From assembly GCA_040384765.1 (NCBI GenBank), contig JAZKIQ010000005.1, positions 64,490 to 87,547 on the forward strand: DNA of 23,058 nt, in the 5' to 3' direction. Every line of letters begins with the position of its first letter. Position 1 is the stretch's first letter. The notes beneath the pieces are model-generated. The model was given only the letters and a program-made list of their open reading frames with translations, had not been told where the DNA came from and ran no database searches. Origin of the DNA: Patescibacteria group bacterium. Lineage in GTDB: Bacteria; Patescibacteriota; Minisyncoccia; Phycocordibacterales; JBBUBG01. The translations under genes and the position numbers were made by a program. Below, in pieces: positions 19,976 through 23,031 of this stretch.

Positions 19976-20836
19976 CTATCTACTGATATCGATAAACGGC
20001 ACCGTCGCGTTTGGAATCATCTGGGTAGGGAGCTTGCCGTCCCACTTTTCGACAGCCTTGAGCTGGACATAATCATCGCCTCCTTGAGCGGAGAGCGATT
20101 GCGCCTGAATACGCTGTGCCTCCGCTGTTGCGCGAGCAGTCTCGATTGTCTGCTGCGCTTCAAACTTAATCTGCTCAAGCTTGTTCTTTGCCGCCTCTGC
20201 GTTTTGCACCGCGGTCACCTTATTTTCGATCGCCTGGGTAAACGCAGCTGAAAATTGAAAATTCGTTACACTAAATCGCTCAAGCACGGCATCTTTTGAG
20301 GCGAAGCGTTCAGCGAGCGTAATATTTACCTTGTCACCAAACTCTGCACGCTTGGTAACCAGCTCCTCTGCGGTATATTGCGCCGAAGTCGACTTCACGA
20401 CCTCGCGAATGATAGGTTCGATCACATTTGCTTCGAAGTTTTCGACCGACTTGTACTGCGTATAGATAGCGGTCACCCGATCAGCGTTGACACGGTAATT
20501 GACCACTGTACCAATCCACACATCCTGAAGATCTTTCGATGCACCGGAGAGCTGTGAGCTATCAATCGCATCCCCTTCGTTCCCGTTGCGGTCATAGTTC
20601 ACGGTCCGCGTCTTCACCTCCATCAGGGTAACCTTTTCAACGAACGGCACCTTGAAATAGAGACCTGGATCAACCGTTCCCACCACGGCGCCAAGGCGAG
20701 TCTTCACCCCACGCTCGCCCGCGTTGATAGTACCGAACGAGCCAAACAAGACGAAAAGGACAAGAATGGCCCCAAAGAAATATCCAATCATCTTCGGACT
20801 AGCCGCCCGCTCACCCACAGATTGCAGTGTTGTCAT
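19976..20836 (-). CDS. SPFH/prohibitin (Band 7) family membrane protein
   Basis: N-terminal TM, AGERGV..RLG.V...PGL.FK.PFV, SKDLQ, VKS..AQY.AEEL.TKR, FS..F..AIE.KV.A.Q, EKWDGKLP. Confidence 0.92.
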   Translation of the reverse strand: MTTLQSVGERAASPKMIGYFFGAILVLFVLFGSFGTINAGERGVKTRLGAVVGTVDPGLYFKVPFVEKVTLMEVKTRTVNYDRNGNEGDAIDSSQLSGASKDLQDVWIGTVVNYRVNADRVTAIYTQYKSVENFEANVIEPIIREVVKSTSAQYTAEELVTKRAEFGDKVNITLAERFASKDAVLERFSVTNFQFSAAFTQAIENKVTAVQNAEAAKNKLEQIKFEAQQTIETARATAEAQRIQAQSLSAQGGDDYVQLKAVEKWDGKLPTQMIPNATVPFIDISR

Positions 20837-20949: not shown

Positions 20950-21330
20950 TTACATCAATTTTGCGCGTCGGTGTTGCAATTCAACGATAACACCAACCAA
21001 AAATAATGCGGGAAGAGCCCACATTGTGAATACAGCCACAGCGCTAAAGAAGTACAACGAGATTACATAAAAAATTCCCCACGGGGCGAAATACTCACCC
21101 AAGGCGTGCGAAAGTGGGAATATAATAAGAGTTTCCCATAAAATAAAAATCACTGGAACCAAGAAAATCTTGCGTGCAATTGGAGCTTTAATAAAAAGAA
21201 AAGAGATAAGAAAAATAATCTTACCTACGTATAGCATGAGACCAGCAAACCAACCGAGGGGTACTCCCACCAGTCGAGTGATCATACAAAAAGCTGCCAG
21301 CCCAATAAGAAGGTTGAAGGAATATCGCAT
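20950..21330 (-). CDS. Hydrophobic multi-TM hypothetical protein (126 aa), AT-rich
   Basis: Nearly continuous hydrophobic helices. Visibly lower GC than neighbours. Confidence 0.55.
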   Translation of the reverse strand: MRYSFNLLIGLAAFCMITRLVGVPLGWFAGLMLYVGKIIFLISFLFIKAPIARKIFLVPVIFILWETLIIFPLSHALGEYFAPWGIFYVISLYFFSAVAVFTMWALPALFLVGVIVELQHRRAKLM

Positions 21331-21405
21331 TTTTTAATTTTAGCAAATAGCCGAGAATATGCTTATTTTCTTCTCTAAACCCTAAGTTGATGTCTGACCC
21401 TTTTG

Positions 21406-21540
21406 CTACCAGGGTAGGAATTTCTCTCCCTACAGGAGCAGTACCCCTTTCCCATTTTCTCGAAGCACAGCTTCTCAAAAATACGGCAGAAGGGCTTCGA
21501 GTCCTACACGCGAGTCATGCAGATGACTCGCTCCGGGGAG
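21406..21540. repeat. tRNA-3'-end-derived inverted-repeat (MITE-like) element
   Basis: Ends are a degenerate direct copy (21406-21433) and an interrupted inverted copy (21496-21540) of the tRNA-Asn 3' end, with internal hairpins. Confidence 0.6.
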
Positions 21541-21547
21541 TTCACTC

Positions 21548-21583
21548 AAAAGAAAAAGCACCCTTTCAGGTGCTAATTCTTTT
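21548..21583 (-). terminator. Intrinsic terminator of tRNA-Asn
   Basis: AGCACC-TGAAAG-GGTGCT-TTTTCTTTT on the minus strand. Confidence 0.7.
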
Positions 21584-21588
21584 GGGAA

Positions 21589-21882
21589 CTCCCCGGGTAG
21601 GATTCGAACCTACGACCCTCCCGTTACGCTTTTTTCATCATTTCTGATGGAGCGGACTATATCATCATCCACAATCTAGTGGAGCAAGGCGCTTCCCCTC
21701 CTTTCGGAGAGTACTCTCTTTCGAGATAGTCTCTGAACCTTCCGGATAGTTCTATCCGGCTTGGCTGCGGATCGCCTTTGCTTTCGCAATAAGGGTTCCC
21801 GCAATTCACCTTGTTTTCGATCAGGATTACTCCTGAAAGCTGCCTTTGACAGCGGGGCGCTCTACCACTGAGCTACCGGGGA
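21589..21882 (-). tRNA. trnN: tRNA-Asn(GTT), intron-containing; exons 21882-21849 and 21626-21589; CCA not encoded
   Basis: Spliced sequence TCCCCGGTAGCTCAGTGGTAGAGCGCCCCGCTGT|TAACGGGAGGGTCGTAGGTTCGAATCCTACCCGGGGAG folds into a full cloverleaf with U1-A72, G73 and loop CT-GTT-AA. It has one C27/A43 mismatch. Confidence 0.93.
21627..21848 (-). ncRNA. Group I self-splicing intron (222 nt, no ORF) at anticodon position 35/36
   Basis: P1 GCTGT/GGCAGC with U.G at the splice site. Core elements P AATTGCGGGAA, Q GATCCGCAGC, R TTCAGAGACTA, S GATATAGTCC. P3 CAAGGTG/CGCCTTG, P7.1/P7.2 GAAA hairpins, P9 CATCA-GAAA-TGATG, terminal G. Confidence 0.93.
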
Positions 21883-21897
21883 ATATATTCCTTACTG

Positions 21898-21922
21898 CTC
21901 CCCAGGTAGGATTCGAACCTAC
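21898..21922 (-). repeat. Orphan tRNA 3'-end fragment (T-arm + acceptor strand), att-site-like
   Basis: GTAGGTTCGAATCCTACCTGGGGAG is 24/25 identical to the tRNA-Asn 3' end (21589-21613). No D or anticodon arm upstream of it. Confidence 0.8.
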
Positions 21923-22055
21923 ACGAAGAGCAGAAAGACAAGAAATAGTTTACGTCATTTTTGCGAGACCAGCAAGGCGGGGTTATTCCCTTTGCAAACC
22001 TGGCAGGATATTATGCAAACAGATCGGATACCCCCTTCTCTCTACGAAAGGAACG

Positions 22056-22625
22056 GTGCCCACGTTGCTCTTCTTTGAAAGGTCTGTGCCGAGCGCGCAG
22101 TCGGACGATGACGTGCGAAAGGCGGTCGAAAAGATCCGCGAGCTCTCCTGGCAACCCTGTGTTGCCGCCGCGATCGTTTCGCGAAGCCGCGAGCTGCTCA
22201 TCGTCGAGTCACGCTCCCACGGTACCGGTCAACTGCCAACCTTCGCCCTTCATGGCGACAACCCGCTCGAGGAGGTGACGCGCTATCTCGAGAGCCTCGG
22301 CGCCGAACGCGAGCAGTTCCGGCTCGCGGGTAGCACCTATCCCCTCTTCCGCGAGATCATCCGCCAGCCGGATGCGCATCGCCCGAATTTTCTGTTCGTG
22401 GTGGGGTTCGAGTACTGGGGCGATCCGAGATCGCTCCCACTCCCTCACTATCGGGAATGGCAGAAGTGGCTCGCAGATGATACGCCTATACCGGACGAAA
22501 AGCGGCAGACTCCGCTCGAGCTCGTCCGCATGACCCGCGAGTGGGGCCGCTCCTTCGACTGGTCGGACCAGAGCTCGCCGCGGCTTGCCGAAAGGCGCAT
22601 GGAAGAGCGCACCGCGCTGGGCTAA
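22056..22625 (+). CDS. Hypothetical protein, possibly degenerate Nudix-like fold (189 aa)
   Basis: SD GAAAGGA before in-frame GTG 22056. CVAAAIVS...LLIV...W/QLP resembles a Nudix N-terminus but there is no Nudix box. Terminator downstream. Confidence 0.55.
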   Translation: MPTLLFFERSVPSAQSDDDVRKAVEKIRELSWQPCVAAAIVSRSRELLIVESRSHGTGQLPTFALHGDNPLEEVTRYLESLGAEREQFRLAGSTYPLFREIIRQPDAHRPNFLFVVGFEYWGDPRSLPLPHYREWQKWLADDTPIPDEKRQTPLELVRMTREWGRSFDWSDQSSPRLAERRMEERTALG

Positions 22626-22724: not shown

Positions 22725-22833
22725 GTATACGCCAAGCTCAAGGTTAGTAATGCTCATCTCGGCAATGCGTCTCATTTAGATGAGGCCCGACCTACTGTGG
22801 CCTCAGCCAATTTCATTTAACTCACCACTTTAT

Positions 22834-23031
22834 ATGGCAAACGACAATCGAAATAACGATAAACAGTCACGTGACCATAAGGATCGCCGAGGCTTCGCTT
22901 CGATGGACGAAGCAAAGCAGCGCGAGATCGCCTCAAAAGGCGGCAAGGCGGCACACGCCAAGGGCACCGCACACGAGTTTACCTCTGAAGAGGCTCGTGA
23001 AGCAGGCCGCAAGGGTGGTAGTGCCCGTTAG
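22834..23031 (+). CDS. KGG-repeat general stress protein (YciG/Con-10-like)
   Basis: RGFASMD..KQREIASKGGKAAH..GTAHEFTSEEAREAGRKGG. Confidence 0.9.
   Translation: MANDNRNNDKQSRDHKDRRGFASMDEAKQREIASKGGKAAHAKGTAHEFTSEEAREAGRKGGSAR

What the first reader, a model, noticed from the sequence alone, without database searches (positions are those of the whole stretch)
21589..21882. Group I intron splits the anticodon (35/36) of a hidden tRNA-Asn(GTT)
Seen: two tRNA halves are separated by 222 nt carrying the full group I core. P is at 21796-21806, Q at 21764-21773, R at 21727-21737 and S at 21654-21663. P1 with a U.G wobble fixes the 5' splice site after U35, and the terminal G at 21627 fixes the 3' site. 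P2, P5, P6, P7.1, P7.2, P8 and P9 hairpins are all visible. Established: the classic bacterial tRNA group I introns are in Leu(UAA), fMet, Ile(CAU) and Arg(CCU) at other anticodon-loop positions. I recall recent reports of 35/36 introns in Patescibacteria Asn/Asp tRNAs but cannot verify them here. Inference: standard annotation would miss this gene. If it is the only tRNA-Asn, Asn decoding depends on ribozyme splicing. P7.1/P7.2 suggest an IA-like subgroup. No homing endonuclease is encoded.
Basis: partly seen in the sequence, partly recalled or inferred. Interest (0 to 1): 0.9.

Follow-up and report, generated by a model that had tools for sequence, protein, structure and literature searches.

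The report
Self-splicing intron splits only tRNA-Asn
A 222-base self-splicing (group I) intron sits between the second and third anticodon bases of this tiny genome's only asparagine tRNA gene; it is real, but it is one of many such genes in related reduced bacteria.

Summary
Rfam's group I intron model matches window 21634-21858 (-) at 74.7 bits against a cut-off of 50. Removing 21848..21627 joins two exons into a 72-nt tRNA-Asn(GUU). Neither ARAGORN nor Infernal's tRNA model finds another tRNA-Asn in the 99.83%-complete genome.

The splice sites after U35 and after G21627 are fixed by comparison. 33 other genomes carry an intron at the same CUGU|UAA site. The U35·G wobble is kept in 26 of 26 aligned introns. 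36 of 59 pairs show compensatory changes. A covarying 2-bp P9.0 sits directly before the terminal G.

The 3'-junction motif occurs in 69 of 401 genomes of the order. 68 of those 69 lack an intronless tRNA-Asn motif.

The intron has conserved P7.1/P7.2 hairpins. It resembles phage introns in polymerase genes, not the fMet-type tRNA intron of the same order. Eight relatives carry an HNH-type ORF in the P1 loop; the window's intron does not.

Verdict: a well-supported new member of a known kind. A 2020 preprint already raises bacterial tRNA intron types from 4 to 21. Splicing itself is untested.

The parts
21849..21882 (-). tRNA-Asn 5' exon (acceptor 5' strand, D arm, anticodon stem 5' strand, C32 U33 G34 U35), 34 nt
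   Evidence: ARAGORN on the in-silico spliced sequence. Aligns with the 5' halves of 33 other intron-bearing tRNA-Asn genes.
21627..21848 (-). Group I intron, 222 nt, with no endonuclease ORF
   Evidence: RF00028 at 74.7 bits. Boundaries from the U35·G wobble, the terminal G and P9.0.
21589..21626 (-). tRNA-Asn 3' exon (U36 A37 A38, anticodon stem 3' strand, variable loop, T arm, acceptor 3' strand, discriminator G73), 38 nt; no encoded CCA
   Evidence: The anticodon arm of the joined exons is identical to that of an intronless tRNA-Asn in G163.
21840..21853 (-). P1: exon C32-U35 plus intron C+1 (21852-21848) paired with the guide sequence 21844-21840; loop AAA; U35(21849)·G(21843) wobble at the 5' splice site
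   Evidence: the four exon pairs are invariant in 26 of 26. The +1 base and its partner covary as C-G, G-C or A-U; I read this by eye from the alignment.
21821..21836 (-). P2 hairpin
   Evidence: 6 of 6 pairs show compensatory changes (helix 3).
21807..21813 (-). P3 5' strand (pairs with 21685-21691)
   Evidence: helix 4: 97.8% of cells paired, 3 pairs with double changes.
21768..21801 (-). P4 (21801-21798 with 21771-21768) enclosing P5 (21794-21792 with 21777-21775) and its loop
   Evidence: helices 5 and 6. Coordinates.
21737..21765 (-). P6/P6a hairpin
   Evidence: helices 7 and 8: 6 of 6 distal pairs show compensatory changes.
21727..21731 (-). P7 5' strand (pairs with 21655-21659); by analogy this holds the guanosine-binding site
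   Evidence: 5 pairs invariant in 26 of 26 (helix 9). Invariance is neutral as covariation evidence.
21715..21726 (-). P7.1 hairpin (4 bp, GAAA loop) between P7 and the P3 3' strand
   Evidence: helix 10: 95.2% paired, 2 pairs with double changes. It appears as an insertion relative to the Rfam consensus.
21696..21711 (-). P7.2 hairpin
   Evidence: helix 11: 4 of 4 pairs show compensatory changes.
21685..21691 (-). P3 3' strand
   Evidence: helix 4.
21666..21684 (-). P8 hairpin
   Evidence: Rfam alignment, helix 12.
21655..21659 (-). P7 3' strand (within the conserved GAUGAUAUAGUCC block)
21652..21653 (-). P9.0 5' strand (G, C); pairs with 21629-21628, directly before the terminal G
   Evidence: Both pairs are kept in 26 of 26 with covariation (helix 13). 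By my reading they are kept in all 70 places, in five combinations. The window's G-C/C-G combination is unique.
21636..21649 (-). P9 hairpin (5 bp, GAAA loop)
   Evidence: Rfam alignment.
21627..21629 (-). P9.0 3' strand (21629-21628) and terminal omega-G (21627), followed by the 3' splice site
21557..21574 (-). Terminator-like hairpin plus T-run, 14 nt after the tRNA 3' end
   Evidence: This is a consensus match only: 2 found against 1.3 expected.

Best explanation
The locus is the genome's single tRNA-Asn(GUU) gene. A 222-nt group I ribozyme interrupts it between anticodon bases U35 and U36.

Proposed mechanism, by analogy with characterised group I introns. The gene is transcribed as one precursor. 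The intron folds into P1-P9 with extra P7.1/P7.2 hairpins. Its guide sequence pairs with C32-U35 of the 5' exon, placing U35 in a U·G wobble. A free guanosine bound in P7 attacks after U35. The terminal G21627 is then brought into the same site with the help of the 2-bp P9.0. The 5' exon attacks after it, joining U35 to U36 and creating the GUU anticodon. The exon-exon anticodon stem stays paired and holds the exons together.

Only the spliced product can serve as tRNA-Asn, so reading AAU/AAC codons depends on this ribozyme. The genome has no AsnRS match above cut-off but does have GatB. The spliced tRNA is therefore probably also the scaffold on which Asp is converted to Asn.

The intron is an endonuclease-free member of a mobile family whose longer members carry an HNH-type ORF in the P1 loop.

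Shown here: the intron's fold, the boundaries, the uniqueness of the gene and the family. Inferred: autocatalysis, expression and the transamidation route.
For: - Intron identity: RF00028 scores 74.7 bits against a cut-off of 50 over the full model. It is the only group I hit in the genome.
- tRNA identity: the spliced product is called tRNA-Asn(gtt). It has U1-A72 and G73, read.
- No other tRNA-Asn: ARAGORN finds 43 tRNAs and Infernal RF00005 finds the same 43, none of them Asn. Completeness is 99.83%.
- Same site in relatives: 34 distinct genes, 33 from other genomes, have CUGU|intron...G|UAA, and all 34 splice to tRNA-Asn(gtt). In 14 of the 34, only this register gives U at -1 and G at omega.
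- Structure: of 59 pairs in 14 helices, 94.8% pair and 36 pairs show double changes. 0 of 500 shuffles reach these values; slid controls give 35-43%.
- 5' splice site: the U35·G wobble is kept in 26 of 26.
- 3' splice site: P9.0 covaries in five combinations directly before omega-G.
- The window's ribozyme looks intact. It departs from only 4 of 93 columns that are at least 90% conserved, and 2 of those 4 are the compensatory P9.0 pair.
- An intronless tRNA-Asn in G163 has exactly the anticodon arm predicted for the ligated exons.
- Spread: 69 of 401 genomes of the order hold the 3'-junction motif, with 0 hits to the reversed control. 68 of those 69 lack the intronless motif; I compared the tables by hand.
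- Relatives' long introns encode an ORF that matches Pfam HNH in the 3 of 8 tested (22 bits against a cut-off of 21.4).
- asnS best match is 104.7 bits against a cut-off of 342.6. gatB scores 491.8 against 314.8.
Against: - There is no RNA evidence of any kind. No RNA run was listed, and that is no evidence either way.
- Self-splicing, guanosine dependence and the ligated junction are untested.
- The simple sigma-70 scan found no promoter-like site in 21300-22200.
- The assembly has 12 contigs and 239 N, so an unassembled second tRNA-Asn cannot be strictly excluded.
- In the window itself, a second register (after U33 and after G21629) also satisfies U(-1)/G(omega). ARAGORN's intron mode prefers that register.
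- P7 and the four exon pairs of P1 never vary, so they carry no covariation evidence.
- The alignment and the structure were partly derived from the same sequences.
Confidence: 0.9

Rival explanations
1. The intron is spliced in another register, after U33 and after G21629. That would give a tRNA with anticodon CGU (Thr), as ARAGORN's intron mode reports.
For: ARAGORN -i calls tRNA-Thr(cgt) i(34,222) on the unspliced locus. This register also has U at -1 and G at omega in the window.
Against: - U33 pairs with A in P1, not with G. The wobble is at U35 in 26 of 26.
- P9.0 covariation places omega-G at 21627. G21629 is itself one of the P9.0 paired bases.
- In 14 of 34 homologues the alternative register is impossible. 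In the other 20 it would give UGU, CGU or AGU, whereas 35/36 gives GUU in all 34.
- The genome already has a tRNA-Thr(cgt) and has no Asn.
- The body has G73 and matches intronless tRNA-Asn genes.
Confidence: 0.02
2. The gene is a disabled relic. The intron no longer splices, and the working tRNA-Asn lies in an unassembled part of the genome or is supplied otherwise.
For: The assembly has 12 contigs and 239 N. No expression data exist. A 25-nt ghost copy of the tRNA's 3' half lies just upstream, which hints at past rearrangement.
Against: - Completeness is 99.83%.
- The window's intron keeps 89 of 93 highly conserved columns and shows a compensatory P9.0 change, which implies selection on the pairing.
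- 68 of 69 intron-bearing genomes of the order also lack an intronless motif. Being the sole copy is therefore the rule, not an assembly accident.
Confidence: 0.04
3. It is a genuine group I intron that is not autocatalytic under cellular conditions. It would need a protein helper, such as a maturase or chaperone, so the dependence would be on a ribonucleoprotein step and not on the RNA alone.
For: Many group I introns need protein cofactors in vivo (established knowledge, recalled). The window's intron is small. Nothing here tests catalysis.
Against: The core, both splice-site helices and two GAAA-capped peripheral hairpins are complete. No maturase-like ORF lies in the intron. The closest phage relatives are of a kind reported in print as self-splicing; that is recalled and was not checked here.
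Confidence: 0.12

Closest known systems
Classical bacterial tRNA group I introns: tRNA-Leu(UAA), tRNA-fMet, tRNA-Ile(CAU), tRNA-Arg(CCU). Per the database cited by Williams 2020, all are subgroup IC3 (main text read).
   Same: A group I ribozyme in the anticodon loop of a bacterial tRNA gene. P1 is built from anticodon-loop bases with a U·G wobble, there is a terminal G, and the anticodon stem is kept between the exons.
   Different: The host is tRNA-Asn. The site is 35/36, position '4' in Williams' numbering, against 3, 2, 5 and 5 for the classical four. The intron carries conserved P7.1/P7.2 hairpins between P7 and the P3 3' strand. The one fMet-type intron of the same order that I inspected (L018) lacks that insert. 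BLAST similarity of the window's intron to the two fMet-type introns is at most 20 bits.
The 17 new tRNA/intron settings of Williams 2020, bioRxiv 10.1101/2020.01.27.920355
   Same: That survey used the same logic as here (Rfam CM, ARAGORN with introns, then U-1/G-omega). It reports 0.49 interrupted tRNA genes per genome in metagenomic assemblies of unnamed phyla.
   Different: I could not see Table 1 or Fig. 3, which are images, nor the supplementary seed alignment. Whether 'Asn.4Ug' is one of the 21 settings is therefore unverified. 'Asn' does not occur in the main text.
Phage group I introns in polymerase genes with HNH endonucleases: Shigella phage Moonfish RNAP2 gene, Aeromonas phage MQM1 DNA polymerase, and T7-like and N4-like phage DNA polymerase genes
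   Same: 68.6% identity over 83% of the window's intron with the Moonfish intron. The core blocks are the same, and so is the P7.1/P7.2 insert after P7. HNH-type endonuclease ORFs are associated with both groups.
   Different: The phage introns sit in protein-coding genes, and their endonuclease ORFs lie elsewhere in or beside the intron. The window's intron sits in a tRNA and has no ORF.
Group I introns in rRNA and tmRNA genes of reduced (CPR/Patescibacteria-type) and other bacteria: Tsurumaki 2024 (listing and abstract only); tmRNA database paper PMC11915505 (passages)
   Same: Self-splicing introns in essential structural RNA genes. 96 of 151 relatives hold at least one RF00028 match. The tmRNA introns also have a P7.1 region.
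   Different: The host genes and insertion sites differ.

Membership tests
Group I intron (Rfam RF00028) | Covariance-model score at or above the curated gathering score over the whole model | tested here: met
   74.7 bits against 50, model positions 1-253.
Group I intron (Rfam RF00028) | P1 formed by the 5' exon and an internal guide sequence, with a U·G wobble at the 5' splice site | tested here: met
   U35(21849)·G(21843). The wobble is kept in 26 of 26 homologues.
Group I intron (Rfam RF00028) | Terminal guanosine (omega-G) before the 3' splice site, positioned by P9.0 | tested here: met
   G21627. P9.0 covaries in five combinations.
Group I intron (Rfam RF00028) | Conserved core helices P3-P8 including the P3/P7 pseudoknot, supported by covariation | tested here: met
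   P3, P4, P5, P6 and P8 show compensatory changes. P7 is invariant, so it is present but uninformative.
Group I intron (Rfam RF00028) | Guanosine-dependent two-step self-splicing | not testable with these tools
   No RNA data. A bench assay is needed.
tRNA-Asn | Cloverleaf with a GUU anticodon after intron removal | tested here: met
   ARAGORN calls tRNA-Asn(gtt) on the spliced sequence. All 34 homologues do the same.
tRNA-Asn | Discriminator G73. That this is an identity element is recalled knowledge. | tested here: met
   The base after the 7-bp acceptor stem is G in the window. It is also G in relatives that encode CCA after it.
Classical IC3 tRNA introns (Leu, fMet, Ile, Arg) | Host tRNA and insertion position are one of the four classical settings | tested here: not met
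   Asn, between positions 35 and 36. Classical settings are as listed in the text read.
Classical IC3 tRNA introns (Leu, fMet, Ile, Arg) | Compact core with no P7.1/P7.2 between P7 and the P3 3' strand | tested here: not met
   A 33-nt insert forms two covarying hairpins. The fMet-type L018 has no insert.
Subgroup IA-like introns (P7.1/P7.2 type, as in phage Twort; passage) | P7.1 and P7.2 hairpins between P7 and the P3 3' strand | tested here: met
   Helices 10 and 11. The same insert is seen in the phage introns.
Subgroup IA-like introns (P7.1/P7.2 type, as in phage Twort; passage) | Formal assignment by subgroup-specific models or by the P7:P7' signature | not testable with these tools
   Rfam holds one pooled model and no subgroup CMs were on hand. 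The review states that P7:P7' is diagnostic.
Mobile (homing) group I intron | An intron-encoded homing endonuclease | tested here: not met
   The window's intron is 222 nt and its P1 loop is 3 nt. 8 of 34 homologues have a roughly 71-173-codon ORF in the P1 loop. The three I tested hit Pfam HNH.

The most novel reading that the evidence does not exclude
The Asn introns, and the related Asp and Phe tRNA introns, of these reduced bacteria may be an independent invasion of tRNA genes. They would be phage-related, of P7.1/P7.2 (IA2-like) type, and distinct from the classical IC3 tRNA-intron lineage. On this reading the lineage has not been described in print. It has become the sole tRNA-Asn gene in about one sixth of a whole order. 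Guanosine-dependent RNA catalysis would then be an obligatory, and possibly regulated, step in Asn decoding. Because AsnRS appears to be missing, it would also be an obligatory step in tRNA-dependent Asn synthesis.
Probability: 0.3. Interest if true: 0.55.

Novelty: new member of a known kind. Interest (0 to 1): 0.35.

Why it matters
For annotation: this genome would be reported as lacking tRNA-Asn, and so would at least 68 others of the 401 sampled. Default tRNA finders skip the gene.

For biology: an essential decoding function hangs on one ribozyme in a roughly 0.8-Mb genome. Probably so does asparagine formation on the tRNA, since there is no AsnRS match above cut-off and GatB is present.

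For RNA specialists: the family offers a compact (212-300 nt), richly covarying tRNA intron with P7.1/P7.2. It has natural endonuclease-bearing, endonuclease-free and intronless alleles of the same site, which suits splicing and homing experiments.

None of this overturns current knowledge. [quoted passage not shown]

Tried and rejected
- ARAGORN with introns allowed places the intron two bases upstream and calls tRNA-Thr(cgt). Rejected; see the first rival.
- At the E-value threshold Rfam also lists YrlA (31.2 bits against 69) and group-II-D1D4-4 (18 bits against 49) over the tRNA 5' half and the ghost fragment. Both are far below cut-off and are explained by tRNA-like sequence.
- The sigma-70 promoter scan found 0 sites. 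It is uninformative for this lineage.
- RNA evidence: no RNA holder was listed.
- Ghost 3' half. I tested whether the upstream region is a longer decayed copy of intron plus exon. Only the 25-nt T-arm/acceptor stretch is significant (score 45 against a shuffle maximum of 31). I then looked for an integrase to explain it as an att site. The genome's only Phage_integrase match is on another contig. None of the other 33 intron-bearing loci has such a ghost. It remains unexplained.
I analysed only the 80 listed loci, L061-L140. Most are chance matches in unrelated tRNAs. 14 have the Asn 35/36 junction, and 9 of those 14 reach the RF00028 gathering score. L093, L100, L122, L123 and L137 do not. The scan gives breadth, not a count.
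- The motif counts need exact matches. 120 of the 401 genomes match neither motif. G001, in the window's own family, has an intron-bearing tRNA-Asn that the motif misses. So 69 of 401 is a lower bound.
- The count of 213 of 401 includes G251, which the tool flags as unpublished. Without it the count is 212 of 400. No other claim rests on G251.
- L055 (G323) was dropped by my script because ARAGORN chose a wrong 3' exon. G323 does match the 3'-junction motif.
- Literature. Searches found no paper that names a group I intron in bacterial tRNA-Asn. The Williams 2020 main text was read whole. Its Table 1 and Fig. 3 are images, and supplements are closed, so they may well list this type.

Full report
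**1. What is there**

On the minus strand, window 21882-21589 reads as a tRNA 5' half, then 222 nt, then a tRNA 3' half. Rfam's Intron_gpI model matches 21858-21634 over its full length at 74.7 bits (cut-off 50, E 1.4e-17). It is the only family in the window that reaches its gathering score. It is also the only group I match in the whole 822,710-bp, 12-contig genome, which is rated 99.83% complete.

ARAGORN in default mode sees no tRNA in the window. When 21848..21627 is cut out by coordinates, ARAGORN calls a tRNA-Asn(gtt). By my reading of the sequence the mature RNA is 72 nt (34 + 38). It has U1-A72, discriminator G73 and no encoded CCA.

**2. Is this the only tRNA-Asn?**

ARAGORN finds 43 tRNA genes in the genome and Infernal's RF00005 finds the same 43. 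None is Asn, while every other amino acid is covered. A crude regular-expression screen for GUU anticodon arms gave no further tRNA-like site. The assembly holds 239 N, so strict proof needs a closed genome.

**3. Where exactly is it spliced?**

Two registers in the window give U at -1 and G at the intron's end: after U33/G21629 and after U35/G21627. ARAGORN's intron mode picks the first and calls Thr(cgt). Comparison settles it.

- Among 60 loci fetched from relatives, ARAGORN with introns made 48 calls. 34 distinct genes, 33 from other genomes, have CUGU|intron...G|UAA, and all 34 splice to tRNA-Asn(gtt).
- In 14 of the 34, the 35/36 register is the only one with U(-1) and G(omega).
- In an alignment of the 26 short introns (212-300 nt), U35 pairs with G in 26 of 26.
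- The two bases just before the terminal G pair with the two bases just after P7 (P9.0). Both pairs are kept in 26 of 26 with covariation.
- By my reading, both pairs are also kept in all 70 places found by a junction motif. They occur as five combinations, and the window alone has G-C/C-G.
- An intronless tRNA-Asn in genome G163 has an anticodon arm identical to the predicted ligated product.

**4. Is the ribozyme real and intact?**

RNAalifold recovers P1, P2, P3, P4, P5, P6, P7.1, P7.2, P8 and the exon-exon anticodon stem. I added P7, P9.0 and P9 and counted pairs.

| Measure (59 pairs, 14 helices) | Observed | Control |
|---|---|---|
| Cells that pair | 94.8% | 78.4% in shuffles; 35-43% with partners slid |
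| Pairs with changes on both sides | 36 | mean 26.6 in shuffles |
| Covariation score | 0.468 | 0.157 in shuffles |

For each of these three measures, 0 of 500 shuffles reached the observed value. P7 and the four exon pairs of P1 never vary and so say nothing either way.

The window's copy departs from only 4 of 93 columns that are at least 90% conserved in the others, and two of those are the compensatory P9.0 pair. Its six 'unpaired' cells lie in P8 and P9, where MAFFT mis-registers it. The Rfam alignment shows both helices paired.

**5. How common is it?**

- RF00028 matches occur in 96 of 151 relatives; many of the places were not examined.
- A motif spanning P7', omega-G, UAA and the anticodon stem occurs in 69 of 401 sampled genomes of the order. 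That is 66 of 362 good-quality genomes and 53 of 223 genera, with no hit to the reversed control.
- An intronless tRNA-Asn motif occurs in 213 of 401 genomes. This count includes the unpublished G251.
- Only G154 has both motifs. So 68 of 69 intron-bearing genomes show no intronless copy by this test (my comparison of the two tables).
- 120 genomes match neither motif, so these figures are lower bounds.
- In named public records the same junction appears in assemblies labelled Patescibacteria group, Paceibacterota, Parcubacteria and Saccharibacteria. It also appears in assemblies labelled Elusimicrobia, Blastocatellia, Clostridia and Gammaproteobacteria. That is 14 of the 80 loci I examined, and 9 of those 14 reach the RF00028 cut-off. 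Labels of metagenome bins can be wrong.

**6. What kind of group I intron is it?**

All 26 aligned introns carry two hairpins between P7 and the P3 3' strand, which is the P7.1/P7.2 position. The Asp and Phe introns of relatives have the same insert. The one fMet-type (classical) intron I inspected does not.

| Compared with the window's intron | Result |
|---|---|
| Shigella phage Moonfish (RNAP2 gene split beside an HNH gene) | 68.6% identity over 83% of the intron; 71.6 bits |
| Nearest Asn intron of the order | 77 bits |
| Two fMet-type introns of the order | at most 20 bits |

In all, BLAST against phage records finds 38 records. Others include phage DNA-polymerase introns. A formal subgroup call needs models I did not have.

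**7. Mobility**

Eight of the 34 introns are 532-590 nt long and hold an ORF starting 22-114 nt into the intron, that is, in the P1 loop. Five ORFs are 105-120 codons, one reads on to 173, and two are cut short at 71 and 79. The three I tested hit Pfam HNH just above cut-off. The window's P1 loop is 3 nt, so it is an endonuclease-free copy.

Intron subtypes mostly agree within a family of genomes, but one family (f56) holds two subtypes. I read this and made no tree or test.

**8. Mechanism and consequence**

The standard two-step group I pathway is the best-supported reading. Guanosine attacks after U35, omega-G docks with the help of P9.0, and the exons are ligated to create GUU. Catalysis itself is inferred.

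The best asnS match is 104.7 bits against a cut-off of 342.6, and gatB is present at 491.8 bits. Asn-tRNA is therefore probably made by transamidation on this same tRNA. This is an inference; the role of U1-A72 in that pathway is recalled.

**9. Literature**

- Williams 2020 (bioRxiv, main text read) raises the known tRNA settings from 4 to 21 and notes 0.49 split tRNA genes per genome in unnamed phyla. The table that names the settings is an image, and 'Asn' is not in the text.
- Lui 2021 (passage) says some tRNAs in circularised genomes had group I introns that made them hard to detect.
- The tRNAscan-SE 2.0 paper (passage) says the program was not designed to detect such introns.
- Six searches found no paper that names a tRNA-Asn group I intron.

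**10. Verdict**

The observation and nearly all of the interpretation stand. The find is an ordinary member of a widespread, lightly documented class and not a rarity. Its points of interest are the sole-copy status, the phage-like P7.1/P7.2 architecture and the natural series of alleles.

Noticed in passing
window 21898-21922 (-): There is a 25-nt 'ghost' copy (24 of 25 identical) of the tRNA-Asn T arm plus acceptor 3' strand. It ends 15 nt before the gene's 5' end. None of the other 33 intron-bearing loci has one, and no integrase lies nearby. Its origin is unexplained; it could be a relic of a tandem copy or of an att site.
   Followed up: partly
L028:1691-2008 (-), L054:1180-1494 (+), L042:994-1353 (+); also L004, L010, L045, L052, L060: Long versions (532-590 nt) of the same Asn intron carry an ORF in the P1 loop, of 105-120 codons in five of the eight. 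The three tested match Pfam HNH at about 22 bits against a cut-off of 21.4. In L010 and L045 the ORF is cut short. This is a candidate homing endonuclease for the tRNA-Asn anticodon region.
   Followed up: partly
L005 (G119), L079, L118; L025, L026, L030; L018, L024: Relatives also carry group I introns in tRNA-Asp(GUC) at the same 35/36 position (CUGU|CAC), in tRNA-Phe(GAA), and in tRNA-Met(CAU) after U33 (the classical fMet setting). The Asp and Phe introns share the P7.1/P7.2 insert; the fMet one does not.
   Followed up: partly
own genome: C1:28354-29637 (-), C5:8177-8956 (-), C6:39876-41273 (-): No asparaginyl-tRNA synthetase match is above cut-off (best 104.7 bits against 342.6; the matches are probably AspRS and LysRS). 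GatB is present at 491.8 bits. Asn-tRNA is therefore probably made by transamidation on the intron-split tRNA.
   Followed up: partly
own genome: C5:175092-175178 (-), C6:1966-2039 (-), C10:76420-76493 (+): ARAGORN calls a tRNA-Ser with anticodon ACT next to tRNA-Ser(GCT), a tRNA-Ile(TAT), and only one tRNA-Val (TAC). This is an unusual, minimal tRNA set.
   Followed up: no
own genome: C10:79578-79700 (-): The genome's only Pfam HNH match (31.1 bits, in a 173-codon open frame) lies 18 nt from tRNA-Ser(TGA) at C10:79475-79560. It may be a free-standing endonuclease. I did not compare it with the intron-borne HNH ORFs.
   Followed up: no
window 21557-21574 (-): A terminator-like hairpin with a T-run lies 14 nt after the tRNA 3' end. 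The same hairpin also reads as terminator-like on the plus strand.
   Followed up: no
window 22071-22622 (+) and 20953-21330 (-): The two ORFs that flank the tRNA gene have no Pfam match. Further neighbours are ordinary: Band_7/SPFH at 19979-20836 (-), KGG stress repeat at 22780-23028 (+), OmdA and DUF1428.
   Followed up: partly
L186 (Shigella phage Moonfish, 1476-1719) and L187 (Aeromonas phage MQM1, 1390-1641 and 2017-2648): [quoted passage not shown] The gene is filed there as two separate CDSs with an HNH gene between them.
   Followed up: no
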